A stretch of DNA of 64,000 nt from an uncultured Candidatus Actinomarina sp. (GTDB lineage: Bacteria > Actinomycetota > Acidimicrobiia > Actinomarinales > Actinomarinaceae). The first letter of the stretch is position 1; every line of letters begins with the position of its first letter. The translations under genes were made by a program, and so were the position numbers. The stretch is from the NCBI GenBank assembly GCA_902625455.1, contig CACOBL010000003.1:406-64405 (forward strand), in the 5' to 3' direction. Shown piece by piece: positions 7,788-52,100 of the stretch. Below the pieces are notes generated by a model. It made no database searches. It was not told where the DNA came from and was given only the letters and a program-made list of their open reading frames with translations.

Positions 7788-8711
7788 ATGAAAATTTTAA
7801 TTACGGGTGGAGCAGGTTTTATTGGCTCACACCTTTTAGAAGAACTTTTAAAATCTGATAATGAAATATTGGTATTTGATAACTACTTAACTGGGAAAAA
7901 AGAAAATATTGAATTCCATGGTAATTTTAAATTAATTGAAGATGATTTTGGTACTAAAAATTCATTAAATTTAATTAAAGAATTTAATCCTCAAATTTGT
8001 TTTCACTTGGCAGCTCAATCTTCTGTTGTAGTTTCTGTAGATGATCCATTACTTGATTTTGAACATAACATCTTACAACCAGTCCAACTTATAAAAACTT
8101 TACAAAGCACTGATTGTAGTAAGTTCATTTTTACCTCTTCTGGTGGAACGATATTTGGCGAGCCAAACATTTTACCAACTAGCGAATATGATTTTGCAGG
8201 TGAACCTGAGTCACCATATGGTATTGGTAAAAAGAAGTTTAACGAAATAATCATGAGTATGACAATTGATACACATTTGTCGTATTCAATTTTGAACCTC
8301 TCAAATGTTTACGGACCACGTCAGGATCCTCACGGCGAAGCAGGAGTAGTATCCATATTTTCAAATAAAATTTTAAAGAATGAAAAACCAATTATTTACG
8401 GCGACGGAGAACAAACAAGAGACTATGTATATGTGAAAGATGTTGTACATGCATTAATTTTATCTTCAAAGATTGACTCCAATTTATTTCTTAATATAGG
8501 GACTGGAATAGAGACATCTGTAAATCAATTATTAGAAACGATAAAATTTGAATTTGAATCTGATATAGAACCAATATATAAGGAGTCAAGAAAAGGTGAA
8601 CTTCTACGAAGTGTTTTGAATAGTTCTAAGGCACAAAAAGAATTAAATTGGGAATCTCAATTTTCATTAAATAAGGGTATAAAAGAAGTAGTAAGCTGGT
8701 TAAAAACTTAA
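7788..8711 (+). CDS. NAD-dependent epimerase/dehydratase (UDP-glucose 4-epimerase-like)
   Basis: TGGAGFIGSHL, SSGGTIFG, YGIGK (YxxxK), NVYGPRQDPHGEAGVV and GDGEQTRDYVYV motifs. Confidence 0.88.
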   Translation: MKILITGGAGFIGSHLLEELLKSDNEILVFDNYLTGKKENIEFHGNFKLIEDDFGTKNSLNLIKEFNPQICFHLAAQSSVVVSVDDPLLDFEHNILQPVQLIKTLQSTDCSKFIFTSSGGTIFGEPNILPTSEYDFAGEPESPYGIGKKKFNEIIMSMTIDTHLSYSILNLSNVYGPRQDPHGEAGVVSIFSNKILKNEKPIIYGDGEQTRDYVYVKDVVHALILSSKIDSNLFLNIGTGIETSVNQLLETIKFEFESDIEPIYKESRKGELLRSVLNSSKAQKELNWESQFSLNKGIKEVVSWLKT

Positions 8712-9406
8712 AGAAAAAAATCTTCTTGATCGTCTCTAATTAGTAACTCCGCATTTTCATTTGAGGATTCATATTTAAGTCCTCTTATAATAGCTATTGG
8801 AATATCAATCGACTTTTCCATAACTAATTCTGCTGCACTAGCAATTTCGTCAATTGTCGCAATTTCTGTTGCAAATAGTTCATTTTTAAATGAGTCGTAT
8901 TTCCCAATATAATTTGTAATAGGAGAAATTCCAGATGACCCTATTGCAAAATTAACCTGACCTTTTCTCCATGCTCTGCCAAACGTATCAGAAATCACTA
9001 CAGCTACTCTTTTTCCACTTGCAGTTTCTATTTGGCTTCTAAATTTATGAGCTGATTTATTTGGATCTTCGGGTAAAAGAAGAGCTTTGTTTTTCTCAAT
9101 ATTAGATTTATCTATTCCTGCATTTGCACATATGAAACCGTGTTTTGTTTTTGCAATTATTAAATCCCCTCGTTTTCTTATGATTTGTTTCGTTTCACTT
9201 TTAATTAAATCTTCAAATTCATATTCATTTAAATCTCTTTCCATACCTTCACTCTTTGAAACAATTTTTTGTGTAATCACAAAAACATCGCTATCTTTAA
9301 TGACATTTCCTGATTTGTTAATAATGTCAAATGTCATAGTGGCTAAGTCATCACCTTTTTTAACTTCAGGCAATCCTTTTATAGGAATAATTGAAATTTC
9401 ATTCAT
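8708..9406 (-). CDS. cofE: Coenzyme F420-0:L-glutamate ligase (stand-alone)
   Basis: GLPEVKKGDDL, VITQKIVSKSEG, ANAGIDKSN, LLPEDP and DTFGRAWRKGQ motifs. Confidence 0.92.
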   Translation of the reverse strand: MNEISIIPIKGLPEVKKGDDLATMTFDIINKSGNVIKDSDVFVITQKIVSKSEGMERDLNEYEFEDLIKSETKQIIRKRGDLIIAKTKHGFICANAGIDKSNIEKNKALLLPEDPNKSAHKFRSQIETASGKRVAVVISDTFGRAWRKGQVNFAIGSSGISPITNYIGKYDSFKNELFATEIATIDEIASAAELVMEKSIDIPIAIIRGLKYESSNENAELLIRDDQEDFFL

Positions 9407-10295
9407 AATTGAGTAATTTTGTAGCTAATTTCTTTGAATCTTCGATTGTTTTAAAAAGAATGCTCTCTTCGTATGTGTCGGTTAAATTATTAGAATCTCC
9501 AAAATGTACTACATATTTGTTTGCTATATTTTTGTAGAACTTCTTAATTCCTTCAATATCAGCTGTAAGCCCCATGTCTATGAAGTTCATCTTGGAGGGG
9601 CCTTTTATGGCATTGTTGTTAATAAATGGGCTAATAACTATTACATTATTATGCCTAATTAAAGCATCTTTTATTCTCTTTAGAGACAAAATTGGACCAA
9701 TCGATAAATATGGATTTGACGGTCCAATGATAATCGTATCGCTTTCACTGATAGTTCTTAGGAGTTTGTTACTAACTTTTGCTTGACTAGATCCTTGATA
9801 GGTAATATTTTTTAATCTAGGTTTTCCTTTTTTTTGAACAAAATAGTTTTGAAAATCAAGCCTCTCTCCTTGCTTTGTAATTAATTTTGTACTCACCTTG
9901 TCATTAGTCATTGGAAGAATGTCACAAAGAATATTAAATCCAGATTTTATTTCATGAGTAATTTCTGTCAAAGTTTTACCTTCATGCAGCATTTGGTTTC
10001 TAAAAAGATTGATAGCTAAATCTTTATCACCAATCATGAAATTAGTATTTAAATATTTATTTAAATGCTCATGAACTGTAAATTTATCTTTTTTTATTCC
10101 CCAACCAAATTCACCTTCAATGCCTGCGAGTCCATATATTACAGTGTCTATATCTGGAGATAGCGATACACCATTAATATATTCGTCATCACCGGTATTA
10201 ACTATTATTGATAGTTTGTTTGAACAAACTTTATATAGGCCTTTAGCAAATTTTGCGCCACCTACACCACCGCTTAAATACGTAACTTTTTTCAA
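9399..10295 (-). CDS. cofD: 2-phospho-L-lactate transferase
   Basis: LSGGVGGAKFAKG, VNTGDD, SPDIDT, F.IGDKDLA, PMTND and IGPSNPYLSIGPIL motifs. Confidence 0.93.
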   Translation of the reverse strand: MKKVTYLSGGVGGAKFAKGLYKVCSNKLSIIVNTGDDEYINGVSLSPDIDTVIYGLAGIEGEFGWGIKKDKFTVHEHLNKYLNTNFMIGDKDLAINLFRNQMLHEGKTLTEITHEIKSGFNILCDILPMTNDKVSTKLITKQGERLDFQNYFVQKKGKPRLKNITYQGSSQAKVSNKLLRTISESDTIIIGPSNPYLSIGPILSLKRIKDALIRHNNVIVISPFINNNAIKGPSKMNFIDMGLTADIEGIKKFYKNIANKYVVHFGDSNNLTDTYEESILFKTIEDSKKLATKLLNYE

Positions 10296-17519: not shown

Positions 17520-20114
17520 TTGAATTTATTTAAAAAAGCACTTTCAGTTGGTAGTGGGAAGTTAACTTCTGAGCTAAATGGGATTGTTGAAGAAATAAAT
17601 AAAAAAGAGCAATCTTTTGAAAAATTATCTGATGAAGAAATAAAAACTAATTTTCAAAATCTTTCTGAAAAAATTGTTGATTCACCTTCCGATATTGAGG
17701 TAGAAGCATTTGCATATATAAGAGAGGCCGCAAAAAGAACACTTAATCAAAGACATTACGATGTTCAACTATTTGGAGGACTGGTTCTTCTTAGAAATAA
17801 AATATCTGAAATGAAAACCGGTGAAGGTAAAACTCTTGTTTCAACCTTACCAATCTCTTTAATGGCTTTATATAAAAAAGGCGTTCATGTAGTAACTGTA
17901 AATGAATACCTCGCAAAAAGAGACGCAGAGTGGATGAGTCCAATTTATAATTTTTTAGGTCTTGAAGTAGGTCTGATTTATTCAAATCAAGATTATGAGG
18001 AAAAGATTGAAGCATACAAAAAAGACATTACATATGGTACCAACAATGAATTTGGTTTTGATTATCTCAGAGATAATATGGCAATTTCAAGTGAACAATT
18101 AGTTCAAGGAGATTTGTTTTACGGTGTTATTGACGAGGTAGATTCGATACTAGTTGACGAAGCAAGAACTCCATTAATTATATCTGGCAAAGTAAGTGAT
18201 TCAACAAAATGGTACACAGAGTTCACCAAGATTGTAAAAGGAATGAAAAGAGATGTTCACTATGATATTGACGAAGCTAAAAAACAAGTTCATCCTACTG
18301 AATTAGGAATTGAATATGTCGAATCAAAACTGGGTATCTCAAATTTATACGAAAATTCTCAAACAAACTTTATACATTATTTAACGGCATGTTTAAGAGC
18401 TAAAACAATATTTGCAAAAGATGTGGATTATATTGTTTCAAATGGTCAAATCAATATTGTTGACGAATTTACAGGCAGAGTTCTTGAAGGAAGGAGGTAT
18501 TCAGACGGGTTACATCAAGCATTAGAAGCTAAAGAAAATGTAAGAATTCAAGATGAAAATCAAACATTAGCATCAATAACTTATCAAAACTATTTCAGAA
18601 TGTATGAAAATTTGGCAGGAATGACTGGTACTGCAAAAACTGAAGAAGAAGAGTTTATTCAAATATACAATCTTGAGGTTGTTGAAATCCCCACAAATTT
18701 ACCAATACAAAGAATGGATCAACAGGACGCTGTTTATAAAACTAATGAAGCAAAACTGAACGCAGTTATTGACGATATTATTGACAGAAACAAAAAAGGA
18801 CAACCAATTTTATTAGGAACTGTTTCTGTCGAAGCTTCAGAAGAAGTATCTAAACAATTAACTAACAAAGGAATCGTACATAATGTTTTAAATGCAAAAA
18901 ATCATGAACAGGAAGCTCAAATCATTGCACAGGCGGGAAGATTGGGAGCTGTTACAGTTGCAACGAACATGGCTGGAAGGGGTGTTGATATAAAATTAGG
19001 TGGAAATCCTGAGGAAATAGCAGTTCAGCAGCAAATAAAGGAAAATAAACTAGACGACCCAATGTATTTAGATTCAAAGATTAATGATTTAGAGTTACAA
19101 GTATCTGAAGAAAAAAATAAAGTATTAGAACTTGGTGGGCTATATGTTTTAGGTACAGAGAGGCATGACTCAAGAAGAATTGACAATCAGCTAAGAGGAA
19201 GATCTGGCAGGCAAGGCGACCCAGGAGAATCAAGATTTTATATTTCACTTCAAGATGACTTAATGAGAAGATTTCAAGGTGAAAGAATTGAATCAATAAT
19301 GAATAAACTCAATCTTCCAGATGAAGAACGAATAGAACAATCAATGGTGACTAAAAGTATAGAAAGGGCACAAGCTCAGGTTGAATCACTCAATTTTGAA
19401 ATCAGAAAAAATGTACTTAAATTCGATCAAGTACTAAATCAACAAAGAGAAGTTATTTACAAATGGAGAAGACAACTTCTTAGGTCTGATAGTATTGAAA
19501 ATTTAATTTCAGAATGGTTTGATGATGTTGTCAGCACTATTTCAAATAATATTGAACTACATAAAAAAAATTATGAAAACTTAGAGCATTTAAACCAATT
19601 AATTTCTGATGAACTCAGTAATTTATTAAGTGATGGAGTTAAAAAAGAATTTGTTAGAAATATCGAGATCAACGATCAATTGCAAATTGATCATGAGCTG
19701 GAGAATCTATTTAATAATAATGAATCACAAGACTTTGATACATTTTGGAAATTAGCAAGAGGTTCATCTTTATCATTTGTTGACCAATCTTGGAAGGATC
19801 ATTTAGCTGAAATGGACTATTTAAGATCTGGAATTGGACTAAGGGCAATGGGCCAAAGAGATCCGCTTGTTGAGTATCAGAATGAGGGATATACACTTTT
19901 TGAGGATCTAATTGAGAATGTTAAGTTTTCAGTAATTAGAATTCTTATGAATTTTGATAAAAGTTTTATCATACAAAATCAAGAAAACAAGGATAATGTA
20001 AAGACTACACAAATAATTAAAGATAAGATTGGTAGGAATGATCCTTGCTATTGTGGTTCAGGTATTAAATATAAAAAATGTGGAATGGTTAATAAATGTA
20101 TAAAGAAATCCTAA
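17520..20114 (+). CDS. secA: Preprotein translocase ATPase SecA (start likely TTG 17520 rather than 17496)
   Basis: EMKTGEGKT, HVVTVNEYLA, DEVDSILVDEARTPLIISG, TNMAGRGVDI, SRRIDNQLRGRSGRQGDPG motifs; C-terminal GRNDPCYCGSG. Confidence 0.97.
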   Translation: MNLFKKALSVGSGKLTSELNGIVEEINKKEQSFEKLSDEEIKTNFQNLSEKIVDSPSDIEVEAFAYIREAAKRTLNQRHYDVQLFGGLVLLRNKISEMKTGEGKTLVSTLPISLMALYKKGVHVVTVNEYLAKRDAEWMSPIYNFLGLEVGLIYSNQDYEEKIEAYKKDITYGTNNEFGFDYLRDNMAISSEQLVQGDLFYGVIDEVDSILVDEARTPLIISGKVSDSTKWYTEFTKIVKGMKRDVHYDIDEAKKQVHPTELGIEYVESKLGISNLYENSQTNFIHYLTACLRAKTIFAKDVDYIVSNGQINIVDEFTGRVLEGRRYSDGLHQALEAKENVRIQDENQTLASITYQNYFRMYENLAGMTGTAKTEEEEFIQIYNLEVVEIPTNLPIQRMDQQDAVYKTNEAKLNAVIDDIIDRNKKGQPILLGTVSVEASEEVSKQLTNKGIVHNVLNAKNHEQEAQIIAQAGRLGAVTVATNMAGRGVDIKLGGNPEEIAVQQQIKENKLDDPMYLDSKINDLELQVSEEKNKVLELGGLYVLGTERHDSRRIDNQLRGRSGRQGDPGESRFYISLQDDLMRRFQGERIESIMNKLNLPDEERIEQSMVTKSIERAQAQVESLNFEIRKNVLKFDQVLNQQREVIYKWRRQLLRSDSIENLISEWFDDVVSTISNNIELHKKNYENLEHLNQLISDELSNLLSDGVKKEFVRNIEINDQLQIDHELENLFNNNESQDFDTFWKLARGSSLSFVDQSWKDHLAEMDYLRSGIGLRAMGQRDPLVEYQNEGYTLFEDLIENVKFSVIRILMNFDKSFIIQNQENKDNVKTTQIIKDKIGRNDPCYCGSGIKYKKCGMVNKCIKKS

Positions 20115-21200
20115 GCAAAGTTAACAACTTCAATGAGAGATTGATTTCTGCAAAGGGGTATCTTTGACTTTGAAAACAAAAAAAAGAAGCTTGATCAATT
20201 AAATCTAGAGATAAATAAAAAAGGATTCTGGGATAATACGCAGTATGCCCAAAAGGTATCAATTGAAGCTTCTACTATAGAAAAATTGATAACGTCTTTA
20301 AGCAGTTTAGAAAATGACCTCATAGAGCTCAAAGAATTAATCGAGCTTACTGAAGAAGAAAATATCAATGAAAAAGACTATCAAGATGAAATAAACAAAT
20401 TAGAAAATCTGATTGAGGAGATTGAAGACGAAGCACTTTATTTCGATAAGTATGATGACTTGAATGCAGTTTTGACTATCAATGCAGGTGCTGGTGGAGT
20501 TGACGCTCATGACTGGGCTGAGATGCTTTTAAGAATGTATACAAGACACCTTTCAAGCAATAATATAGATCATCAGATTGAAGAAATATCTCAGGGCGAA
20601 GAAGCGGGAATTAAGTCAGCATCTATAAGGATCAATGGATTTAGAGCATATGCAAATTTAGAGAGTGAAAGAGGAGTTCATAGATTAGTAAGAATTAGCC
20701 CTTTTGATAGTAATAAAAGAAGACACACTAGTTTTGCAGGAGTAGATGTGATTCCTTTAATTGAAAATAATGACGAAATTAATATTCAAGATGATGAAAT
20801 AAGAATTGATGTTTATAGATCTTCTGGAGCTGGAGGACAGCATGTAAATACTACAGATTCAGCTGTTCGAATTACACATATTGATTCTGGACTAGTTGTG
20901 GCTTGTCAAGCAGAAAGATCTCAGCTTCAAAATAAAACAAGAGCATTGGAACTTTTAAAGACAAAATTATTGTTAAAAAAAAGAGAAGATGAATTGAAAA
21001 AATTGAATGAAATAAGAGGAGATCAGCACGAGGCTGGATGGGGTAGGCAAATTAGGTCTTATGTACTTCAACCATATCAGCAAGTAAAAGATGCTAGAAA
21101 CAGTGTTGAGGTAGGCAATGTACAGAATGTTCTTGATGGAGATATTTCCATATTCATTAAAGAGTACCTAAAATGGCGTAGACAGGGAATAAATGATTAA
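20096..21200 (+). CDS. prfB: Peptide chain release factor 2 with programmed +1 frameshift (23-codon ORF0 from ATG 20096, continuing at GAC 20166)
   Basis: ORF0 MYKEILSKVNNFNERLISAKGYL ends in CTT-TGA-C. The +1 frame DFENKKKKLDQ...FWDN joins the tracked ORF with SPF, GGQ and WGRQIRSYV. Confidence 0.95.
20153..20168 (+). promoter_or_regulatory. RF2 autoregulatory frameshift cassette (internal SD + CTT TGA C)
   Basis: AAGGGG-TAT-CTT-TGA-C matches the classical prfB signal. Confidence 0.95.
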
Positions 21201-22755: not shown

Positions 22756-24121
22756 AAGGTTTTTAACTCTTTCACTGCCAATATTTCTAGTTTTGACTTT
22801 AATGTTTCCAACGAATTCGATGGCTATAACTGCAGAAGATAGATTGATAGAAGTAGAGAGACAATTACAGGCAATCGCTGAGCAAATCAGCAACTACGAA
22901 GGTCAACTTACTGATCTTGAAAATGCTATTTTGGAAAACGATAAAGATTTGCAACAAGTCAACCAAGAACTTTCTGAAGTACAATCAAGGCTGTCTGCTG
23001 CTGAAAGGGAATTAGAAAAAGCATTAGAGAATTACGATGGAACTTTAAATGACTTGGCTGAAGTTCAGCAGACTATTGTTCAAGAACAAACAAAACTTGG
23101 AAAAATTAAAAATGAAATATCTAATGTATCTGACGAATTGTTTGAAACTCAAAAAAACTTGGTAGAAGCAGATGATAAGTTACAAGAACAAGCTGTAAGC
23201 CTCTACATTAATGGTGTTATGAGTCCGACAACAGCGTTATTTGTTGAATTAGATGAATTATCAAGATTTCTTGTTGCTTTAGGTTATGCTTCTACAATTG
23301 TTGACTCAGCCTATGAGATTGTTGAGCAACTGAATGCTTTAAAAAATCTTGCTTCAACTCAGACAATATTTTTGACTCAAAGAGAAGAAGAAAGAGAAGA
23401 AATTGTAAATCTTTTACAAAATGAGGAGACAAGAAAAACTGAAATTTCTGTTGAAGCTGAAGAATTTGCTGAAGAAGTAGAGGAGAAAAAAGAAACTGTA
23501 GAAAGAGAGAAAAGGCAAGTTGAGGCTAAAAAATCTCAGGTTCTTAGAGCTAGGCAAAATGCTCAAAGTTTATTAAATCAAGCTAATAAAGAATTAGAAA
23601 AGTTGGATAAAGAACATGCTGATTTAGAAAAACTTGAAGATGCAATCCAGGCAGATATAGAAAGGCTAAGTAGTGTAGGAGGTGTTGCGCCAAATAAACT
23701 AAGCTGGCCAGTAACAACAGGATATGTTTCTAGTGGATACAAATGGAGAAGACTTGGAGGAACAACTAGTTTTCATGGTGCTATTGATATAGCAGCAAGT
23801 AGAGGTACCACAATTAAGGCTGCAGCAGGTGGTGTAGTTATTCTTGCAAGATATTATGGCCTTGCCGGAAGGACTGTATTTATCGACCACGGTGGAGGAA
23901 TGACTACTTTATATTTTCATATGGATAAAATTTTAGTTTCAGTTGGTCAAACCGTAGTGACAGGTGACCAAATAGGAACAGTTGGATCTACAGGACGTTC
24001 TACAGGACCACATTTACATTTTGAAGTAAGATTAAAAAATCCAAGTTCGGCTAATTGTTCACTACCTTACCTAGATCCAACTTCTAGAGGTAGAGTCAAT
24101 CCTTATTGTTTTCTAGATTGA
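22748..24121 (+). CDS. Coiled-coil M23 peptidase (EnvC/RipC-like FtsEX partner)
   Basis: Signal peptide, long coiled coil, FHGAIDI, GRTVFIDH, TLYFHM and TGRSTGPHLHFEVR motifs. Confidence 0.88.
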   Translation: MIRRFLTLSLPIFLVLTLMFPTNSMAITAEDRLIEVERQLQAIAEQISNYEGQLTDLENAILENDKDLQQVNQELSEVQSRLSAAERELEKALENYDGTLNDLAEVQQTIVQEQTKLGKIKNEISNVSDELFETQKNLVEADDKLQEQAVSLYINGVMSPTTALFVELDELSRFLVALGYASTIVDSAYEIVEQLNALKNLASTQTIFLTQREEEREEIVNLLQNEETRKTEISVEAEEFAEEVEEKKETVEREKRQVEAKKSQVLRARQNAQSLLNQANKELEKLDKEHADLEKLEDAIQADIERLSSVGGVAPNKLSWPVTTGYVSSGYKWRRLGGTTSFHGAIDIAASRGTTIKAAAGGVVILARYYGLAGRTVFIDHGGGMTTLYFHMDKILVSVGQTVVTGDQIGTVGSTGRSTGPHLHFEVRLKNPSSANCSLPYLDPTSRGRVNPYCFLD

Positions 24122-24552
24122 TGAAAGTATTTGCAGAAAATAGAAAAGCCAGAAATTCATATGAATTTCAAGAATTTTATCAAGCTGGAATAGTCTTGAC
24201 TGGTCCAGAAACAAAGAGTGTTAGAACAGGTGCTGTTTCAATTGTTGATGCATTCGCAATAATTGAAAACGAGGAGGCATTTCTTATGGAAATGAACATT
24301 GAGCCATATAAATATGCAGATCAAATTGATTATAATCCAAAAAATCAAAGAAAACTTTTACTTCATAAAGGTGAAATAAAAAAACTAATTGGCTTAACTT
24401 CCCAAAAAGGATTTACATTAATTGCTACAAAGATATTTGAAAAAAATGGATATATTAAAGTTGAGCTTGCTTTGGCTAGAGGCAAAAAAGATTATGATAA
24501 AAGAAAAAAACTTATTGAAAAACAGCATAAAAAAGAAATTAAGAACTATTAA
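24121..24552 (+). CDS. smpB: SsrA-binding protein (true start ATG 24121)
   Basis: ENRKARNSY, AGIVLTGPETKS, RKLLLHKGEI and LARGKKDYDKR motifs. Confidence 0.96.
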   Translation: MKVFAENRKARNSYEFQEFYQAGIVLTGPETKSVRTGAVSIVDAFAIIENEEAFLMEMNIEPYKYADQIDYNPKNQRKLLLHKGEIKKLIGLTSQKGFTLIATKIFEKNGYIKVELALARGKKDYDKRKKLIEKQHKKEIKNY

Positions 24553-26068
24553 AAACTTTCTCAGTGCCTACTCTTACATCACAAACACCTTCAAAATTTC
24601 CATCATCTTTTTTATAAATAATTGAAATAGGACCATAAGCCTTGTTGAATTTATTATCTACTTCAACTTCATGCCCTTTTTGAAGTAAAATTTCTAAATC
24701 CTCATTATTAATTTTTTCGAATCTCAATTTTGATAATGTGTCATTAGAAAAATTTTCTATTACCCATCTCGGTTCTTTAATTATTTTTTCAAAGGAATCT
24801 GAATTTTTGATATAAGGAAGTATTGTTTGAATTAATAGTTGAGGCTGATATCTCCCGCCTCTAGTTCCAGCTATAAATTCTAAATTTCCATTTTTAGACC
24901 ATATTGTTGGTGAAAGAGTATGAAGGGGTTTTCTTCCAGGTGTTAAATAATTTGGGTGATCCAAGTCTAGATTGAATCCACATCCTCTGTTATGTAGGAA
25001 AAATCCAAAACTTTCTACGCCTATCCTGCTTCCAATTCCGTGAAAATTAGATTGTATAAGTGAAACCCCTAATCCGTTTTTATCAACGGTGTTCATATAC
25101 GCTGTTCCTCCACCATGTGGTTTAGGAAAATCAAATTTTTCAGATTGGTTGGGATTAAATAGCTTTATTTTTTCTTGTATGTAATTTAGATCAACTCCTT
25201 TAAAATCTTCAATATTTTTCCCATAATCGTAAGTAATATTGTCTCGATCAGCAGCAAAAATTCTATATGTCTCAATAACTTTATGTATATCATCGTGTTC
25301 AGCACTTAACATCTCAATTGCTTTTAATGTTGATAAAGTAAGATAACCCTGTGTAGATGGTGGTGATGTCCATCCATCGAATCCATAAATATTTGCGTGT
25401 AAAGGTTTTTTCCATTCAGCTTTATAATTTCTCAAATCATCCAACGATAATATTCCATTAACACTTGAAGAGATTGATTTTGAAATTTCACTATCATAAA
25501 AATATTCCAGGCCATTTCTTTTTAACAGCTCTAGAGTTTTTCCTAATTGAGGACGCCTTAAAAGCACACCTTTTTCAAAAGGCTGGTTATCTCTATAAAA
25601 TCCATAACCAGAGGACTGGCCGCTAAGTTCTTCTTTATGTAAGGTAAGTGAATTATAGAGTTCTTCGTTGATTTCAAAACCTTCGTGGCATAAATCTATT
25701 CCAAGATCTAGGATATCTTTTATTTTTAGATTTCCATATTTTTTACTAAGTTCTATCCATCCTGCAACTGCACCGGGAACAGTTACTGATACGGGATGAT
25801 TTAATGGTATAGACTCCACATTTTTTAAATCATCAGGATTTGCAAAAGATCCAGCATATCCAGAAGCATCCAGAAAATCGGGTTCATTTTTTGATGGGTC
25901 CCAAACTAGCGCAAATAAGTCTCCACCAATACCACAAGTTTCTGGTGCTACGATACCTTGAATAAGATTAGTTGCAATAGCAGCATCAACTGCATTTCCA
26001 CCTTTGTTGTATATTTGAGATGCAATATCAGTAGATAAATAGTGAGGGGAGACAATTATGTTATTCAT
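24539..26068 (-). CDS. ggt: Gamma-glutamyltransferase family protein
   Basis: GGNAVDAAIA, CGIGGDLFAL, VTVPGAVAGW, nucleophile GTAYM, QSNF, NRG and PGRKPLHTLSP motifs. Confidence 0.9.
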   Translation of the reverse strand: MNNIIVSPHYLSTDIASQIYNKGGNAVDAAIATNLIQGIVAPETCGIGGDLFALVWDPSKNEPDFLDASGYAGSFANPDDLKNVESIPLNHPVSVTVPGAVAGWIELSKKYGNLKIKDILDLGIDLCHEGFEINEELYNSLTLHKEELSGQSSGYGFYRDNQPFEKGVLLRRPQLGKTLELLKRNGLEYFYDSEISKSISSSVNGILSLDDLRNYKAEWKKPLHANIYGFDGWTSPPSTQGYLTLSTLKAIEMLSAEHDDIHKVIETYRIFAADRDNITYDYGKNIEDFKGVDLNYIQEKIKLFNPNQSEKFDFPKPHGGGTAYMNTVDKNGLGVSLIQSNFHGIGSRIGVESFGFFLHNRGCGFNLDLDHPNYLTPGRKPLHTLSPTIWSKNGNLEFIAGTRGGRYQPQLLIQTILPYIKNSDSFEKIIKEPRWVIENFSNDTLSKLRFEKINNEDLEILLQKGHEVEVDNKFNKAYGPISIIYKKDDGNFEGVCDVRVGTEKVFNSS

Positions 26069-26075
26069 ATTGATA

Positions 26076-26081
26076 ATTATA
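26076..26081 (-). promoter_or_regulatory. -10 box TATAAT for a leaderless ggt transcript
   Basis: Perfect TATAAT 7 nt before the ATG at 26068; no SD. Confidence 0.6.
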
Positions 26082-26165
26082 AGTAATTTTTACTATATAT
26101 TTCCTTTGAAAGTTACTCGTATAAATTCAACAACTATAAACTTATAAAACAATAAGGAGTTATTA

Positions 26166-26474
26166 ATGAAAGATATAAACGCGCAAGAATACAGTGAATT
26201 ATTAAATTCAGATTCACCAGTTGTTATAGATTTTCACGCAACATGGTGTGGTCCATGCAAAGTTTTAAGTCCAATCCTTGAAGAGTTATCAAGCGAAGTT
26301 GAAGGAGTCGAGTTTGTAAAGCTAGATGTAGATCAACATCCAGATATCGCAGGAGCTAATGGAGTTATGGGAGTGCCAACAGTAGTTATGTTAAAAGGTG
26401 GAGAAGTTAAAGAACGATTTGTTGGCGTTCAGCCAAAAGAAGTAATTAAAGAAAAAGTTTCCGCTTTAATCTAA
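26166..26474 (+). CDS. trxA: Thioredoxin
   Basis: FHATWCGPCK; SD AAGGAG upstream. Confidence 0.96.
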   Translation: MKDINAQEYSELLNSDSPVVIDFHATWCGPCKVLSPILEELSSEVEGVEFVKLDVDQHPDIAGANGVMGVPTVVMLKGGEVKERFVGVQPKEVIKEKVSALI

Positions 26475-26475
26475 A

Positions 26476-26757
26476 TTGCTTCGAGTAGTTTTATTTTTAC
26501 AAGTCTTAACCTTATCTTTACTGATAGGTGCAGGAATATACTTTTACAATTATGTTCAGGTAATCAATTCTGAAATTGAGACTGTGATGTCTGTAATTCA
26601 AGACATTCAAGCATTACTTCCAAAACTAAACGCTACTGCAGATGCTGTTTCTTCATTACAATCACAATTTGGAGAAGCATTCAAAACTCTCAGTGATCTG
26701 TCATTATTTTTTAATAACTTTCTTGAGTTATTTAGTCAATTACAAGGAAATTCCTAG
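26476..26757 (+). CDS. Hypothetical single-TM coiled-coil protein
   Basis: N-terminal hydrophobic helix then amphipathic helix; packed between trxA and the glutaredoxin-like gene. Confidence 0.55.
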   Translation: MLRVVLFLQVLTLSLLIGAGIYFYNYVQVINSEIETVMSVIQDIQALLPKLNATADAVSSLQSQFGEAFKTLSDLSLFFNNFLELFSQLQGNS

Positions 26758-26759
26758 CA

Positions 26760-27008
26760 ATGAATATTAAATTTTATACTACTGACTGGTGTGGGGATTG
26801 TGTACGCTCTAAAGCCTTACTTAACAAGTTGAATGTAGATTTCGAGGAAATAAATGTAGATATAAACTCAGAAGCAAATGAATACATTACAAAATTACAA
26901 AAAAATCAGAGAAGAATCCCAACTATTGTATTTGAGGATGATACTTTTCTAGTTGAGCCATCTGATGTTGAATTAGAAAATAAATTAAAACAATTAAATT
27001 ATATTTAA
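26760..27008 (+). CDS. Glutaredoxin-like protein (mycoredoxin/NrdH type)
   Basis: YTTDWCGDC, RRIPTIVFED and EPS motifs. Confidence 0.82.
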   Translation: MNIKFYTTDWCGDCVRSKALLNKLNVDFEEINVDINSEANEYITKLQKNQRRIPTIVFEDDTFLVEPSDVELENKLKQLNYI

Positions 27009-28076: not shown

Positions 28077-29225
28077 CTAATTATCAAAATTGGCTTTTAT
28101 ATTTTCGTAAATCGGCCAACCATAGGGAACACATCCATCTGTCCCTTTACTTTGTTGCATCATAACTGGTGCTATTGCACCTTCTTTAGGACAACTTGTA
28201 TGTCCCCAGCCTAAAATATGGCCTGTTTCATGGTTTATAAGATACAATCTATAAGTTTCTAAATCTCTTAAAAAATCCCTGGCACCATTTTTCCATCTAA
28301 AATCATTAATCACTATATCTTTTTCATTTCTGCATGAATATATTCCATTTGTTTGCAAGGGGTAACAAAGTTCATCAGTAGTTTCAGGGGAAGCAAATAT
28401 ATATACAAAATCACTATTTTCAACACTTGTATGATGAAAACCTTTATTTGTTATATTTATCCAGCCTTTTTCATGATTAAGAATCAAGTTCAATATTCTT
28501 TTTATGCATTCAAAGTCAATATTTAGAGAAGACTCAACTTGAATTCCGTAATTAAATTTTTTGTCATCTCTTAAATTAAGAGTCTCAACTTCAATAATCT
28601 CAGAATTCTCCGCAGAATTTTCAATGCTTTCTAGATAACAACCGATTTTCAGGTCTTCTGTCCCTAAATCCTTAGATTTTGTAACAGACTCATCTGATAG
28701 AAATATTGCTGTTATATTTTCTTCTTGATTTTCTTTTATTCTTATTACTTCTTCAACTTCTGTTAGTTGTGATGTAAAAAAATTTACTTTTTCATTAATT
28801 GTTAACGTTGTAACAATATACAAAAATGTAGCTTCATCAATATTCGAGTAATTATTTTTGAAATAATTTAAAGTGTATTCATAATGTTCTAAGTATGTAG
28901 TCCTCTTATCATTTATGATTTTTAAAGAATTTTCCCACTCAGAAAGACATTCCTTTGTTAGGCTAAACCAGTTTCCAGTTTTAGAACATAAATCACTTAT
29001 GGCCTCAATAGAAGATGTTGTCTCCTGTTCAAAATCAAAATTTGGATAAATATATTTTTCAGTTTTAATCACAGGGGATGTTGTAGTAGTAGTAACTTCA
29101 ATTAATGTTGTTGTAGTTACTGCAACAGTTTCTTCAGAATCTCCACTGTTAAAAAAGTTTAAACCAAACACACTTATAGAAATTAAAAATAAAAAAAGTA
29201 GGAAGGTTTTAGTGTTTTGTTGCAT
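28077..29225 (-). CDS. Membrane-anchored DUF3152-type zinc metallopeptidase with Thr-rich linker
   Basis: N-terminal TM, TTTT tracts, IN..RW..GA, YR.YLINHETGHILGWGH..CP..G..APVMMQQS. Confidence 0.8.
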   Translation of the reverse strand: MQQNTKTFLLFLFLISISVFGLNFFNSGDSEETVAVTTTTLIEVTTTTTSPVIKTEKYIYPNFDFEQETTSSIEAISDLCSKTGNWFSLTKECLSEWENSLKIINDKRTTYLEHYEYTLNYFKNNYSNIDEATFLYIVTTLTINEKVNFFTSQLTEVEEVIRIKENQEENITAIFLSDESVTKSKDLGTEDLKIGCYLESIENSAENSEIIEVETLNLRDDKKFNYGIQVESSLNIDFECIKRILNLILNHEKGWINITNKGFHHTSVENSDFVYIFASPETTDELCYPLQTNGIYSCRNEKDIVINDFRWKNGARDFLRDLETYRLYLINHETGHILGWGHTSCPKEGAIAPVMMQQSKGTDGCVPYGWPIYENIKANFDN

Positions 29226-29265: not shown

Positions 29266-29826
29266 TTATTTTTTATAACCTATTTCGTCAATAAATTCTT
29301 CGGGCTCTAAGCCAAGTCCATCAGCAACCCTATTGATGTAATTAAAATATGAAATTACCTGAACTATTTCTGATATTGCTTTGTCATTGAACTTATTATT
29401 TTGTAATTCTTTGTAATCTAATTCAGTAATTTCTCCAGGTTTTAAAGTTAACTTTTCTGCAAATAAGCATAAAGCGATTTGTTCTTTTGTTAAGCTACTT
29501 GTTTTCCAGTCATTAGCAATTTCATCAACTAATTTTTGGTCTTTTGTCTCCGACCGGAGATCATATAAGTGAGCACGTATTCAGTATTCGCATTCATTTG
29601 AAATTGAAGTTATTACTGCAAGAAGTTCTCTATCAAAACGAGAGATTTCTAAATTTCCAAACATTGTAGAATTATATAATCGCATTGAATCTCTTAAAAT
29701 TTCTGGTGTTTGGGACTGAATTGTTAGTATATTCCAAATTCTTCCAGCTCTTCTCATGCCTTTTTCATACTCCTTTTTGAGAAGGCCAGTAGAGTCCTGA
29801 AATTTGAATAATTTAATAAATGCCAT
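29266..29826 (-). CDS. AhpD/CMD-like peroxidase-related protein, 186 aa, in-frame UGA at codon 82 (probable selenocysteine, CxxU)
   Basis: ELLAVITSISNECEY-UGA-IRAH...AEKLTLKPG...ISEIVQVISYFNYINRVADGLG. The frame stays open 104 codons past the UGA with no in-frame ATG/GTG/TTG. Confidence 0.85.
29545..29562 (-). promoter_or_regulatory. Putative bacterial SECIS hairpin
   Basis: UG(A)UCUCC-GGUC-GGAGA-CA. The loop starts 25 nt after the UGA and is built from GC-rich codons (CTC CGG TCG GAG) unusual for this AT-rich DNA. Confidence 0.75.
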
Positions 29827-29856
29827 ATTAATAATTTTTACTTAAAATAAGAGTGT

Positions 29857-30972: not shown

Positions 30973-31310
30973 GGGGGTGAACTGGCTTCGACTTTGAAGT
31001 GAGTCTCTCAGTAGCGAGTCGAGGGTCCTAGGGCCTCGTTAAAAACGTAGGAAAATAATATAACTGCCAAACCTAAGTTGGCTTTAGCAGCTTAATTGTT
31101 GCTCGTCACCTATCGGGGCTCCCACCTCGGATAGCAATGGCGTCGAAATGTGGGATGCTGAGTTGGGTTACCGACTGACTCTTAAGATTTAGGTAAACCT
31201 GTTAGGTTATAGGTTCCGATGACTTGCCTAACAGTAAAACATCGGATGCACTCGGAGAAGCTGTTTGATAGCTTGGAAGGACCGGGGTTCGACTCCCCGC
31301 ACCTCCACCA
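30973..31310 (+). ncRNA. ssrA: tmRNA
   Basis: 5' GGGGGTGAACTGGCTTCGAC; 3' GGTTCGACTCCCCGCACCTCCACCA; acceptor stem with G3:U70; internal tag ORF. Confidence 0.96.
31066..31095 (+). other. tmRNA tag reading frame AKPKLALAA*
   Basis: ATAACT-GCC resume context; ends ALAA-TAA. Confidence 0.85.
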
Positions 31311-49109: not shown

Positions 49110-49130
49110 TAAAAAAAGTTGTTGTGTGTG

Positions 49131-52100
49131 ATGAATAAATATAATTTTATTTTGTTTTGTCTTAAAGTTAAGACGTTCTTTCACGCCATCAACTATAAAA
49201 AAATCACAACAACAACACTTCATGTTCTTTTATTTGCATTAGTATTTATTTCTTCTTGGGCCACACCTCAAGAAGAAGCATATGCAAATACAACATGGGA
49301 ATGTAACGATGCCGCAGAGAGAGCGTATTTCTATAAACTTGACTGGGAGTTTACCGACAACTTTTTTACAATCTCTCAATATGTTGCCACATCTACATCA
49401 ACAGTTAACTTAGATGAGACTCAAGTAAGTTTATCTGGCTTAACGGTAGGTGGAACAAGCATAACTGGTGTAAAAGGTATTAATGGTTTAGCTATGTCAC
49501 CTGATGGAAAGATGTATGTAACAATCACATCTTCAGCAAACGGTACTGATCTTTTCCAAATAAATACTAATGGTTCACTCACACACTTAAAAAATATGGG
49601 AGCATATGGAACTATTGGTCAGTTAGATTTCTATCAGCTACCAGGTGGTGGTGGTCACTATGGTTTCTCATCTGGTGAGTATGTCTCTAAAGATGGCATA
49701 GATAGAATTTATTTCTCACAGGGTGCATTTGATACTGACTCTGATGGAAATGGATCAGACATTGCCAGACCAAACTCAAACATGATCTATAACGTAGCAA
49801 ACGGTACAACAACTACCTTTCCAGATCCAGGGTTTGTTAGCCCAATTAATGCTGCTGACTACGCCTATGTAGGTGACTGGGACGGATATGAGTTGGTCAC
49901 ATATGATGCAATCAATAACAAAATACACAGATTTGATATCGATAATCCATCAAACTCATCTTCAATTGACCCACAAACAAGTGCGTTTTCTGGAGCTAGT
50001 ACTGTACTTTCAGCATTTTCTTATAAAACACCCCAAGGTGAGATTCGATTTATTGTAGATGACACTAATGGTATGCGTTTTGAGATTGTAAGAAATGGAA
50101 CAAATAACTATAGCGTTACCCAAAAAGGAAGCTCTTTCTTAACAAACAACTCTGATGGTGCTTCTTGTGGACCTAATGCATATGATCCATTTTCTCCAAC
50201 ATTTAAAGCCACTCTTACAGCATGTTCCAATGGTTTCGCTACACCACAACTTAAAATCACAAACAACAAAACAAGCACACAATACTTTGATGTAGATGTC
50301 AGTGTAGATGGAGGTTCGTTTACAAATCTTGTTGACGGGCAGTCGGTGACTCCTGGCAATGATATAACGCTTTCGGCAAATCAGGAATATGACGGTCGAA
50401 CAATACAATTCCGTATGCGCTACAACTCATCTAATCCAAGTTCAGGCACATACTACAACGTAGGTCAACAATTAACTGTCAGTGGATGTGGAAACTATAC
50501 GTTAGCAACTGGTTCTGTTGCGACTGCAAATGGAACATGTTTAGGTGATGGTACATCAAAGCCTACAATTACTCTCACAGCAACTGGTAACGCGACGGTA
50601 TTTTTTGATGTTGAGTACAAAGTTGGAAGTAGCGCCTGGCAGGCATTAAAAGATGGTGAACAAGTTACAGTTGGTTCTCCAGAGACTTACGAAATAACGT
50701 CAGCAGTAGCACACAACTCTGTCGTTACTTTTAGATATATTGTTGGCGCTAGCAATCCATCAAGTACGAACTGGACAGAGTCGTCTGGTGTAACTGTTAA
50801 CTGTCCTGTATACAGTATGACTGCAAGTTTAAATTCACCTTCATGTACAACTAATCAACCATATAAGACCTACACAATGACAGTGCAAAACACAGGTAAC
50901 CAAACGCACTATGTTCACATTAAAGGAAATATAAATCAAACTGGTCAGTCTGGAACCGAAAGTTTTATTGAATATGGCACAAATATTACTGCTAATTCAT
51001 CACGTACATTTAGTTTTCAAATGTGGCATGGTGTTACACCACAAATTAAATGGATGCATTCCACTAATTACTCCAGTTATAACCTTTTCGCAAACGGTGT
51101 TAATGGATCTTTGACGTCTAATTCAAGTTATGGATCCTATTTAAAATCCGGCGATTCTTTTCTAACGCTTGCTGACTCAGAGGTTGACTGTTTCTATGTA
51201 GGTAGTGGTGGTTCCTCTAATAACTCAAGTAGCAACTATAACCAAACTACGAAAACTATATCACAGGTTTGTGATGCTCAGGGAAGTGCTATTGCAAGAT
51301 TTACTATTAAACAAAGAGATGCAGCAAACGATAGCTTTAATGGTTTTATTGATGTTGATTACTCAACAAATGGTTCATCGTGGTCAACTCTGGCTGATGG
51401 GGTAGCATTTAACGACGGAGTAACGTTAACGTATGACTCGCCATCTACATTATCCTCGGGATCAACTGCGTATTTTAGATTTAGAATTGACGATACAAAT
51501 CCTGATAGCACAGCAGCATGGGGTATCTACACCCAGGCAATAAATTGTCAGGCTGATTTTAGTGTTTCACAAACAGTAACCTCATGTTCAGCATCTGGTC
51601 AAACTACAACACTTACAATTACTAATAACGAATCTCAGACTATTTACTTTAGAGCAGTACCTTCAAAAGTTGGTGCAAGCAATAGTGAAACATCCTCATC
51701 TAATTACGAAGATGATGATATCCAGTTATTCTCCATTGCTGCAAACACTACATACTCACACACAACAACAAAGACATATACATATGGTGTCTCCAGTTAT
51801 ATTTACTGGAAAGTTCAGGGCTCTTTTACACAAAATCCAGATTGGACCAATTCAACATTACATAACTTTAATTACACTTCAGAAGTACAAACAAATTGTA
51901 ATCCTTCAACTACTGGAGTTTATGCAATGAGTGCCTGTACTAACACAGGAAAAACTTCAACGCTTACAATACAAAATAACGAATCTGTAACTATTTATGT
52001 TCGTATTCAACCATCAGAAGATCAACTTAGTACAACTAGTTATACCAGTAACTCATATTATGATAATTCACCAGCAGCTGTCGTTTATGCAATTCCAGCA

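What the first reader, a model, noticed from the sequence alone, without database searches (positions are those of the whole stretch)
29266..29826. Hidden selenoprotein: AhpD-like CxxU peroxidase with a SECIS hairpin
Seen: the tracked 81-aa ORF stops at CEY-TGA, but the frame continues 104 codons with AhpD-like sequence (xAH, EKLT, YFNYINRVADGLG) and contains no alternative start codon. 25 nt downstream lies UCUCC-GGUC-GGAGA, made of rare GC-rich codons. Established: UGA replaces the second Cys of the AhpD CxxC; bacterial SECIS elements lie just 3' of UGA with a G-initiated apical loop; AhpD-like selenoproteins are known from marine metagenomes. Inference: this streamlined actinobacterium keeps Sec machinery, which is uncommon in the phylum. 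Standard pipelines would split or truncate this gene.
Basis: partly seen in the sequence, partly recalled or inferred. Interest (0 to 1): 0.75.

Follow-up and report, generated by a model that had tools for sequence, protein, structure and literature searches.

The report
AhpD-like selenoprotein gene in Actinomarina

Summary
On the minus strand, 29826..29266 is one 186-codon frame with a single in-frame TGA at codon 82 (29583..29581), in the motif C79-E-Y-U82-I-R-A-H86. No start codon follows it.

Read through, the protein is a full-length TIGR01926 "peroxidase-related enzyme" (130 bits, cut-off 81.8). It models as a confident AhpD fold (pLDDT 90; TM 0.84 to PDB 6K40).

TGA sits at this position in 79 of 80 homologous genome loci from many phyla, in every Actinomarina relative, and in four independent marine metagenomes. 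Cys forms (TGC) exist. TGA is otherwise an ordinary stop in the window: 9 of 47 ORFs end in it, and prfB has the classical UGA frameshift site.

The hairpin UCUCC-GGUC-GGAGA (29560..29547) starts 20 nt after the UGA. Its loop is the same as in the E. coli fdhF SECIS. It uses the genome's rarest codons, shows no synonymous variation in 13 relatives, and shows compensatory C-G to U-A changes across phyla.

A 2026 preprint reports them in all 84 complete Actinomarina genomes.

Verdict: a real selenoprotein gene that annotation routinely truncates, and a new member of a long-known family. Interest is low to moderate.

The parts
29266..29826 (-). Complete AhpD-like (TIGR01926, peroxidase-related) selenoprotein gene: 186 codons including Sec82, ATG at 29826..29824, TAA at 29268..29266
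   Evidence: TIGR01926 130 bits against cut-off 81.8, profile positions 10-176 of 178; Pfam CMD; pLDDT 90.2, TM 0.84 to 6K40 AhpD
29581..29826 (-). The part that standard gene callers report: an 81-aa ORF ending at the TGA
   Evidence: (the exact 81-aa product is called in NCBI and ENA assemblies, has no Pfam hit, and is indexed in 1115 blocks)
29581..29583 (-). In-frame UGA, codon 82, read as selenocysteine (second position of the CxxU redox motif)
   Evidence: the 'W' in homologues is TGA; 79 of 80 loci have TGA, 1 has TGC; TGA in 4 independent metagenomes; metatranscriptome contigs span it unchanged
29569..29592 (-). Redox-site motif C79-E-Y-U82-I-R-A-H86 (CxxUxxxH). In the model, C79 precedes helix 80-91 and U82 lies in its first turn
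   Evidence: C79 nearly invariant, Y81 and H86 invariant; aligned with CVYCAVSH of 6K40; helix 80-91
29547..29560 (-). SECIS core hairpin UCUCC-GGUC-GGAGA (nt +24 to +37 counting the U of UGA as 1): 5 bp and a GGUC tetraloop
   Evidence: RNAalifold finds it unaided; covariation; no synonymous variation; -6.2 kcal/mol; same GGUC loop as E. coli fdhF
29545..29562 (-). Extended hairpin register (nt +22 to +39). It forms 7 bp in some high-GC relatives (GACCUCC-GGUC-GGAGGUC). The two outer pairs are unpaired in Actinomarina
   Evidence: pairs 34-51 and 35-50 are broken in 11 and 14 of 77 distinct rows
29266..29580 (-). 104 codons after the UGA that encode the C-terminal half of the fold, including the family motif FNYINRVA
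   Evidence: F161-R166 and A168 invariant; pLDDT 94-98 over about residues 81-160; transcribed in metatranscriptomes

Best explanation
This is one intact gene for a 186-residue AhpD-like ('peroxidase-related', TIGR01926/COG2128-type) thiol/selenol oxidoreductase of Candidatus Actinomarina. Its codon 82, UGA, is decoded as selenocysteine. Shown here: the frame is continuous across a single UGA. The UGA occupies the second position of a CxxCxxxH redox motif. The UGA, the downstream frame and a downstream hairpin are conserved across the genus and across many phyla, and Cys-encoding homologues exist. Inferred from established knowledge of bacterial Sec decoding: when the ribosome reaches UGA82, SelB-GTP carrying Sec-tRNA(Sec) is held by the hairpin UCUCC-GGUC-GGAGA, which starts 20 nt downstream. 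Sec is inserted instead of RF2 terminating, and translation continues for 104 codons. Inferred from the family: Sec82 is the attacking nucleophile, held near His86. After reacting with a peroxide or with an oxidised partner protein it forms a selenenylsulfide with Cys79. A thioredoxin- or glutaredoxin-type reductant then reduces that bond. The exact substrate is unknown.
For: A single in-frame TGA and no later start codon. Full-length TIGR01926 match above cut-off, and Pfam CMD. PDB sequence hits to AhpD-like proteins align C79 and U82 with their CxxC (6K40, E 4e-25). The AlphaFold model needs both halves (pLDDT 90.2, pTM 0.86) and matches 6K40 at TM 0.84. In the protein database, 37 full-length clusters at 71-95% identity (about 1,980 member sequences) carry 'W' at position 82. 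The two looked up translate only 'with_TGA=W'. TGA is present in 79 of 80 genome loci from Actinomarina, other Acidimicrobiia, Acidobacteriota, Chloroflexota, Latescibacterota, Gemmatimonadota, Planctomycetota and others, and one locus has TGC. Cys forms CxxC and TxxC have TGC. The TxxC forms keep only the residue that aligns with Sec, which fits that position being the essential one. Hairpin: RNAalifold predicts it unaided. Pair 36-49 is C-G in 57, U-A in 16 and U-G in 4 distinct rows and is never broken. Pair 37-48 is C-G 71, U-A 3, U-G 1 and broken in 2. Overall 83% of cells are paired, against 33-46% when the partner is slid. In 13 Actinomarina-clade genes, codons D89, R91, S92 and E93 show no synonymous variation, whereas only 3.4% of the other 87 invariant-residue codons do. 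R84 uses five different codons while R91 is always CGG, the rarest codon. The loop GGUC is identical to the E. coli fdhF SECIS loop, read directly from MG1655. UGA is an ordinary stop here: 9 of 47 long ORFs end in TGA, and prfB carries the UAU-CUU-UGA-C frameshift site. Metatranscriptome contigs span the UGA and the downstream half. Literature: AhpD-like (COG2128, CxxU) is a catalogued selenoprotein family (PMC1088965, PMC2398784, PMC9312934). selC, selA, selD and a divergent selB are reported in all 84 complete Actinomarina genomes (bioRxiv 10.64898/2026.04.03.716425).
Against: None is in the window or in the 83 related loci fetched by then (aragorn and tblastn with E. coli SelA/B/D). The hairpin is short and has no thermodynamic signal of its own: in a 64-nt context it is not the minimum-energy fold and the z-score is 0. 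It is the minimum-energy fold only in a 51-nt context. Part of the hairpin follows from the conserved protein motif D-L-R-x-E-V. D89, R91 and E93 are invariant even in Cys forms, and one CxxC homologue (L093) keeps a perfect 6-bp hairpin. The loop lies 7 nt further from the UGA than in fdhF. There is no protein-level evidence of selenium incorporation.
Confidence: 0.93

Rival explanations
1. The UGA is read through, but not as selenocysteine. A near-cognate tRNA or a suppressor inserts Trp, Cys or another residue, and the hairpin only slows the ribosome or RF2.
For: No Sec machinery was found in the sequence I could search. Gene callers that read TGA as Trp give a complete protein.
Against: The codon sits exactly at a redox Cys position, and its homologues carry Cys there, never Trp encoded by TGG. 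The hairpin has the GGUC loop of a SelB-binding SECIS. The genus is reported to carry selC, selA, selD and selB. Only one convincing in-frame TGA exists in 64 kb, which fits a targeted mechanism better than general suppression.
Confidence: 0.03
2. Translation stops at the UGA. The gene is a truncated 81-aa remnant or pseudogene, and the downstream frame is decaying sequence.
For: This is how public assemblies annotate it.
Against: The downstream 104 codons are open in all 80 loci and in the 13 Actinomarina-clade genes examined. They contain the most conserved motif of the family, FNYINRVA. They are the best-modelled part of the fold. The TGA itself is conserved across phyla. Pseudogenes do not keep a stop codon and a 104-codon open frame over such distances.
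Confidence: 0.02
3. The organism uses a genetic code in which TGA is a sense codon (table 4 or 25).
For: The genome is low in GC (33%), and some callers translated relatives with TGA=W.
Against: 9 of 47 long ORFs end in TGA. RF2 (prfB) is present with its UGA-dependent frameshift site. A scan for ORFs joined by TGA found no other convincing case in 64 kb.
Confidence: 0.01
4. Sec is inserted, but the UCUCC-GGUC-GGAGA hairpin is mainly a by-product of the conserved D-L-R-S-E-T coding sequence, and SelB recognises something else.
For: D89, R91 and E93 are invariant in Cys forms too. The CxxC homologue L093 keeps the hairpin. There is no thermodynamic z-score signal.
Against: Rare codons are frozen at synonymous sites in a 33% GC genome. 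Compensatory C-G to U-A changes occur at two pairs, and the Leu90 CTC-to-CTT change keeps a U-G pair. RNAalifold finds no other conserved helix between -12 and +44. The TxxC Cys form L037 has lost the helix.
Confidence: 0.07

Closest known systems
AhpD-like selenoprotein family ('AhpD-like protein' of the Sargasso Sea selenoproteome 2005; 'AhpD-like 1', COG2128, CxxU, of the GOS selenoproteome 2008; PMC1088965, PMC2398784, PMC9312934)
   Same: Marine origin, an AhpD/CMD-type domain, Sec as the second residue of CxxU, Cys homologues, and a SECIS hairpin just 3' of the UGA with a small G-containing loop. It was the fourth most abundant selenoprotein family in GOS, with 299 sequences.
   Different: Nothing in kind. 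Those papers did not assign the sequences to Actinomarina. I did not compare sequences with their accessions, so identity of lineage is inferred. Assignment to COG2128 is inferred from the TIGR01926 match, not tested.
Selenocysteine use in Candidatus Actinomarina ('Actinomarina, resolved', bioRxiv 10.64898/2026.04.03.716425)
   Same: The same genus. It reports selC, selA, selD and a divergent selB in all 84 complete genomes and about 5 predicted selenoproteins per genome, many of them missed by gene callers.
   Different: The preprint names only a 78-aa family, SelD and a K07090 family. AhpD, 'peroxid...' and 'carboxymuconolactone' do not occur in its text. It found no SECIS with Rfam models. 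Here the gene is given a family, a fold and a defined SECIS.
E. coli fdhF SECIS (minimal upper stem-loop GGUUGCA-GGUC-UGCACC)
   Same: A hairpin inside the coding sequence 3' of the UGA, an identical GGUC apical loop, and similar stability of the minimal element (-4.2 against -6.2 kcal/mol).
   Different: The loop starts 25 nt after the UGA here against 18 nt in fdhF. There is no bulged U in the stem and no long lower helix reaching the UGA. SelB binding was not tested.
Structurally characterised Cys-type TIGR01926-like proteins (PDB 6K40 D. radiodurans AhpD, 3C1L, 2PFX, 2OYO, 2PRR)
   Same: 23-33% identity over the whole length, the same all-alpha fold (TM 0.80-0.84), and an aligned CxxCxxxH motif.
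   Different: They have Cys where this protein has Sec. None comes from Actinomarina.
Mycobacterium tuberculosis AhpD (AhpC-reducing alkylhydroperoxidase)
   Same: The CxxCxxxH active-site signature and the core AhpD domain (TIGR00778, 31.9 bits). The mechanism recalled from the literature, in which the second Cys acts as nucleophile, fits Sec at that position.
   Different: There is no ahpC-type (AhpC-TSA) gene within 10 kb. Only the core domain matches. Whether the partner is a peroxiredoxin is unknown.

Membership tests
Bacterial selenoprotein gene (UGA-Sec with bSECIS) | A single in-frame UGA inside a conserved ORF, with conserved sequence on both sides | tested here: met
   81 and 104 codons, both sides conserved, frame open in 80 loci
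Bacterial selenoprotein gene (UGA-Sec with bSECIS) | Homologues with Cys at the position of the UGA | tested here: met
   P0043/L093 CxxC (TGC); L037 TxxC (TGC); P0045-P0058 TxxC at protein level
Bacterial selenoprotein gene (UGA-Sec with bSECIS) | A stem-loop immediately 3' of the UGA with a small apical loop containing G, conserved among orthologues | tested here: met
   feature definition taken from PMC1088965
Bacterial selenoprotein gene (UGA-Sec with bSECIS) | selA, selB, selC (tRNA-Sec) and selD in the same genome | not testable with these tools
None is in the 64-kb window or the 83 loci searched. The preprint reports them in all 84 complete genomes of the genus. Earlier unverified notes place a Sec-type selD in this genome.
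Bacterial selenoprotein gene (UGA-Sec with bSECIS) | Selenium demonstrably incorporated (75Se labelling or mass spectrometry) | not testable with these tools
   Experimental
TIGR01926 peroxidase-related enzyme / AhpD-like 1 (COG2128) | Full-length profile match above the curated cut-off | tested here: met
   130 bits against 81.8, profile 10-176 of 178. The COG2128 assignment itself was not run.
TIGR01926 peroxidase-related enzyme / AhpD-like 1 (COG2128) | CxxC(U)xxxH redox motif at a helix N-terminus in an all-alpha AhpD fold | tested here: met
TIGR01926 peroxidase-related enzyme / AhpD-like 1 (COG2128) | Peroxidase or disulfide-reductase activity | not testable with these tools
   Experimental
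Canonical AhpD (AhpC partner, M. tuberculosis type) | Gene linked to ahpC | tested here: not met
   no AhpC-TSA family gene within 10 kb in six syntenic loci; only the core-domain model TIGR00778 passes.
NF041238 AhpD_rel_CFYUT (seleno)protein | Profile match above cut-off (175 bits) | tested here: not met
   52.9 bits, C-terminal domain only
Genetic code with TGA as a sense codon (tables 4, 25) | TGA absent as a stop and frequent inside conserved genes; RF2 dispensable | tested here: not met

The most novel reading that the evidence does not exclude
This AhpD-like enzyme may be the main peroxide or disulfide-defence selenoenzyme that helps explain why Actinomarina keeps a full Sec pathway in a 1.1-Mb genome. 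It is fixed as Sec in the whole genus: no Cys allele appears among 37 protein clusters (about 1,980 sequences) or among the 20 Actinomarina-clade loci checked at the DNA level. Its truncated product is among the most widespread mis-annotated genes of the surface ocean, with the exact 81-aa fragment in 1115 assembly blocks. In addition, its SECIS is written into the family's conserved D-L-R-x-E-V motif. That motif already forms the hairpin in a Cys form, so this coding palindrome may have predisposed the family to gain Sec and may have kept an almost identical SECIS sequence across at least eight phyla.
Probability: 0.25. Interest if true: 0.4.

Novelty: new member of a known kind. Interest (0 to 1): 0.25.

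Why it matters
The result corrects a systematic annotation error in one of the most abundant bacteria of the surface ocean. Public assemblies call an 81-residue fragment with no domain hit, where the cell most likely makes a 186-residue selenoenzyme. It also gives a family, a fold and a defined SECIS to one of the roughly five selenoproteins per genome that the 2026 Actinomarina preprint left largely uncharacterised. That preprint speculated about a ROS-defence selenoenzyme, and this gene is a concrete candidate. It does not change what is known about selenoproteins in general.

Tried and rejected

2. ARAGORN and Rfam on the window found only tmRNA and tRNA-Gln. ARAGORN on the 83 loci held at that point found no tRNA-Sec.

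3. tblastn with E. coli SelA, SelB and SelD, taken from MG1655, against the window and the same loci gave no hit at E 1e-3.

4. Walking along the genome to the sel genes was rejected. Gene numbers in the preprint's supplement place this region (MscL, SecA) at about 0.73-0.75 of the chromosome, against selA at about 0.92 and selC/selD at about 0.08-0.10. That is well over 100 kb away, and each look-up reaches only 10 kb.

5. A single-sequence fold of 64 nt gave z = 0 and a different minimum-energy structure. Thermodynamics alone does not single out the hairpin.

6. A scan for other ORF pairs joined by TGA returned 8 other candidates. All are short, lack a redox motif, or (in the cases checked against the ORF list) lie antisense to long ORFs. 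None was followed up.

7. The promoter and terminator scan around the gene found nothing above expectation and no terminator before the downstream gene.

8. One homologue has 'R' at the Sec position (P0057). Its DNA has CGA with an intact hairpin on a single 1.7-kb Logan contig. I read this as a point mutation or an error, not as a third state of the family.

Full report
**The sequence.** On the minus strand an ATG at 29826 opens a frame that reads MAFIKLF...SISNECEY. It meets TGA at 29583..29581 (codon 82) and continues IRAHLYDLRSET...YFNYINRVADGLGLEPEEFIDEIGYKK to TAA at 29268..29266. The ORF list shows only the 81-aa front half. In-frame ATG, GTG or TTG occur only at codons 1, 24, 48 and 55, so nothing could restart translation after the TGA. 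Its stem begins 20 nt after the UGA and its loop 25 nt after.

**What the joined frame encodes.** With Cys standing in for Sec, the 186-aa product matches NCBIfam TIGR01926 'peroxidase-related enzyme' over essentially the whole profile (130 bits, cut-off 81.8). It also matches Pfam CMD and the AhpD core-domain model. It falls far below the cut-off of the separate selenoprotein model NF041238.

- Against PDB sequences the best hits are AhpD-like proteins (6K40, 2PFX, 3C1L, 2OYO, 2PRR; E 4e-25 to 8e-17). Their C-x-x-C-x-x-x-H aligns with C79-E-Y-U82-I-R-A-H86.
- An AlphaFold model built on 23 homologues is confident (mean pLDDT 90.2, pTM 0.86) and is best over about residues 81-160, after the UGA. 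Foldseek matches it to 6K40 at TM 0.84 over 183 columns.
- The two halves are therefore one domain, and the 81-aa fragment alone would not be a fold.

**Is TGA simply a sense codon here?** No. The window has 33% GC. Of 47 long ORFs, 28 end in TAA, 10 in TAG and 9 in TGA. The window also carries prfB (TIGR00020, 408 bits) with the textbook programmed +1 frameshift site GGG-UAU-CUU-UGA-C at 20156..20168. RF2 therefore reads UGA as stop in this cell. A scan for ORF pairs joined by one TGA found no other convincing case in 64 kb.

**Is the TGA real?** Contigs from four marine metagenome runs belonging to four different studies cover 29581-29583 without a difference, while showing ordinary strain variants elsewhere in the gene. 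Metatranscriptome contigs run across the UGA (29512-29659 and 29542-29619, no differences) and cover the downstream half. DNA carry-over into such libraries cannot be excluded.

**Comparative evidence for the UGA.** A search of the large protein collection returned 37 full-length clusters at 71-95% identity, standing for about 1,980 sequences. All carry 'W' at position 82. The two I looked up translate to those proteins only 'with_TGA=W', so the W is a gene-caller artefact for TGA.

- A scan of one genome per species gave 581 relatives, of which the best 80 were kept. At the aligned codon, 79 have TGA (CxxU) and one has TGC (TxxC).
- The closest are Candidatus Actinomarina single-cell and metagenome-assembled genomes (74-95%). 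Next come other Acidimicrobiia at about 50%, then Acidobacteriota, Chloroflexota, Latescibacterota, Gemmatimonadota, Planctomycetota, Marinimicrobia and others.
- Cys forms exist: P0043/L093 is CxxC with TGC, and a group of TxxC proteins keeps only the Cys that aligns with Sec. That pattern fits the second position being the indispensable nucleophile. This agrees with what I recall of M. tuberculosis AhpD, which I did not test.
- One low-coverage contig has CGA at the site.

**The hairpin.** On an ungapped alignment of 80 Sec-type genes (-12 to +44), RNAalifold predicts this helix unaided.

- Counting a 7-pair register: pair 36-49 is C-G in 57, U-A in 16 and U-G in 4 distinct rows, and is never broken. 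Pair 37-48 is C-G 71, U-A 3, U-G 1 and broken in 2. Pair 38-47 is invariant U-A. Pair 39-46 is C-G 73, U-G 3 and broken in 1.
- Overall 83% of cells pair, against 33-46% when the partner is slid. None of 500 shuffles reaches the observed covariation score.
- The U-A state at pair 36-49 arises through GAC to GAU (a synonymous change) together with GUC to ACA or AUC (Val to Thr or Ile). This is seen in Actinomarina and in four high-GC genomes (three Acidimicrobiia and one Ardenticatenaceae).
- Within 13 Actinomarina-clade genes, codons D89, R91, S92 and E93 show no synonymous variation. Only 3.4% of the other 87 invariant-residue codons are that still. Mean pairwise codon difference is 0.11 for codons 89-94 against 0.46 elsewhere. 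The one change in the stem, CTC to CTT, keeps a U-G pair.
- R84, seven codons upstream, uses CGT, CGA, CGC, AGA and AGG. R91 is always CGG, which accounts for 3 of 636 Arg codons in the window.
- The apical loop GGUC is the same as in the E. coli fdhF SECIS, which I read directly from MG1655. Stability is similar to the fdhF minimal element (-6.2 against -4.2 kcal/mol).

**Caveats on the hairpin.** It has no stand-alone thermodynamic signal (z = 0 in a 64-nt context). It lies 7 nt further from the UGA than in fdhF. It also overlaps a protein motif, D-L-R-x-E-V, whose D, R and E are invariant even in Cys forms. One CxxC homologue keeps a perfect hairpin and one TxxC homologue has lost it. The frozen rare codons and the compensatory changes show that the RNA is under selection. 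Even so, the palindrome is partly paid for by the protein.

**Sec machinery.** The window and the 83 related loci held at that point contain no tRNA-Sec and no SelA, SelB or SelD.

- The literature fills the gap. 'Actinomarina, resolved' (bioRxiv 10.64898/2026.04.03.716425) reports selC, selA, selD and a divergent selB in all 84 complete genomes of nine species, no selenouridine synthase, and about five predicted selenoproteins per genome.
- From gene numbers in its supplement, this region lies at about 0.73-0.75 of the chromosome, far from selA (about 0.92) and from selC and selD (about 0.08-0.10). Their absence from the window is therefore expected.
- Earlier notes of this scan describe a Sec-type selD and a SelW-like selenoprotein on another piece of this same genome, and selC and selA-selB in other Actinomarina genomes. 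Those notes are leads that I did not verify.

**Annotation.** The exact 81-aa product is indexed in 1115 blocks of public assemblies, on contigs of up to 867 kb. It is always called as an 81-aa gene with no Pfam hit. The downstream half is either uncalled or called as a 59-61-aa scrap. One locus, L089 from GCA_902625955.1, is identical to the window over the whole gene. Synteny is conserved: a divergent F420/PPOX-like gene, then the AhpD-like gene, then a DUF3152 gene, with a thioredoxin and glutaredoxin-like cluster a few kb away.

**Comparison with what is known.** AhpD-like protein (COG2128, CxxU) was one of the new selenoprotein families of the Sargasso Sea study, with 27 sequences (PMC1088965). 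As 'AhpD-like 1' it was the fourth most abundant family in the GOS selenoproteome, with 299 Sec and 902 Cys sequences (PMC2398784). It is listed in current reviews and in BSepDB. The 2026 preprint does not mention AhpD or peroxidase and found no SECIS with Rfam models. Naming this Actinomarina selenoprotein and defining its SECIS is therefore a small addition. Several other agents of this scan reached the same reading for orthologues in other Actinomarina genomes. That is agreement, not independent evidence.

**Verdict.** This is a genuine selenoprotein gene that annotation routinely truncates, and a new member of a family known since 2005, in a genus whose Sec use was reported in 2026. Confidence in the Sec reading is 0.93, and interest is 0.25.

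Noticed in passing
window 20096..21200 (+): prfB (RF2; TIGR00020, 408 bits) with the classical programmed +1 frameshift. ATG at 20096, the site GGG-UAU-CUU-UGA-C at 20156..20168, and the body continuing in the +1 frame (the ORF list shows only 20286..21200). The site is nearly identical to the E. coli one.
   Followed up: partly
window 49119..61741 (+): A giant 3663-aa ORF with no Pfam hit at 1e-6. It is followed directly by a 543-aa protein with a C-terminal sortase domain (residues 423-536) and an unexpected RecA C-terminal-domain hit (residues 86-140). This may be a surface protein with its dedicated sortase.
   Followed up: no
window 29827..29856: Only 30 nt separate the start of the AhpD-like gene (minus strand) from the start of the divergent F420/PPOX-class oxidoreductase gene (29857, plus strand). 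No clear Shine-Dalgarno sequence or promoter match was seen, so the two genes may have overlapping divergent promoters or leaderless mRNAs.
   Followed up: partly
window 28077..29225 (-): A 382-aa DUF3152 protein with an N-terminal hydrophobic segment and an HExxH-like motif (NHETGHILGWGH). It lies 40 nt downstream of the AhpD-like gene on the same strand, with no terminator between them. The adjacency is conserved in all six syntenic loci, so the two genes may be co-transcribed.
   Followed up: partly
L092 601..1164 and L093 793..1374 (homologues): A high-GC homologue has CGA (Arg) in place of the Sec TGA while keeping a perfect hairpin. It is a single Logan contig, so this may be a mutation or an error. 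A CxxC (TGC) homologue keeps the hairpin GACUUC-CGGGAC-GAAGUC, which suggests a recent Sec-to-Cys switch or a hairpin that predates Sec.
   Followed up: partly
window 24106..27000 and 30973..31310: A cluster of redox and quality-control genes: smpB, gamma-glutamyltransferase, thioredoxin (26166..26474), then a 93-aa unknown and an 82-aa glutaredoxin-like gene (seen in the syntenic loci). tmRNA is at 30973..31310 with the tag AKPKLALAA.
   Followed up: no
window 8708..10295 (-): The F420 biosynthesis genes cofE and cofD sit in this 33% GC genome. Together with the F420-dependent PPOX-class gene next to the target, this fits an actinobacterial origin.
   Followed up: no
model m1099b4ee585b (protein of 29266..29826): Besides AhpD-like proteins, the model resembles the marine tetrabromopyrrole debrominase Bmp8 (6OHI/6OHJ, TM 0.79, 18-19% identity), a thiol-dependent reductive dehalogenase of the same fold. 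A dehalogenase-type activity for a Sec enzyme cannot be excluded, but nothing here supports it.
   Followed up: no
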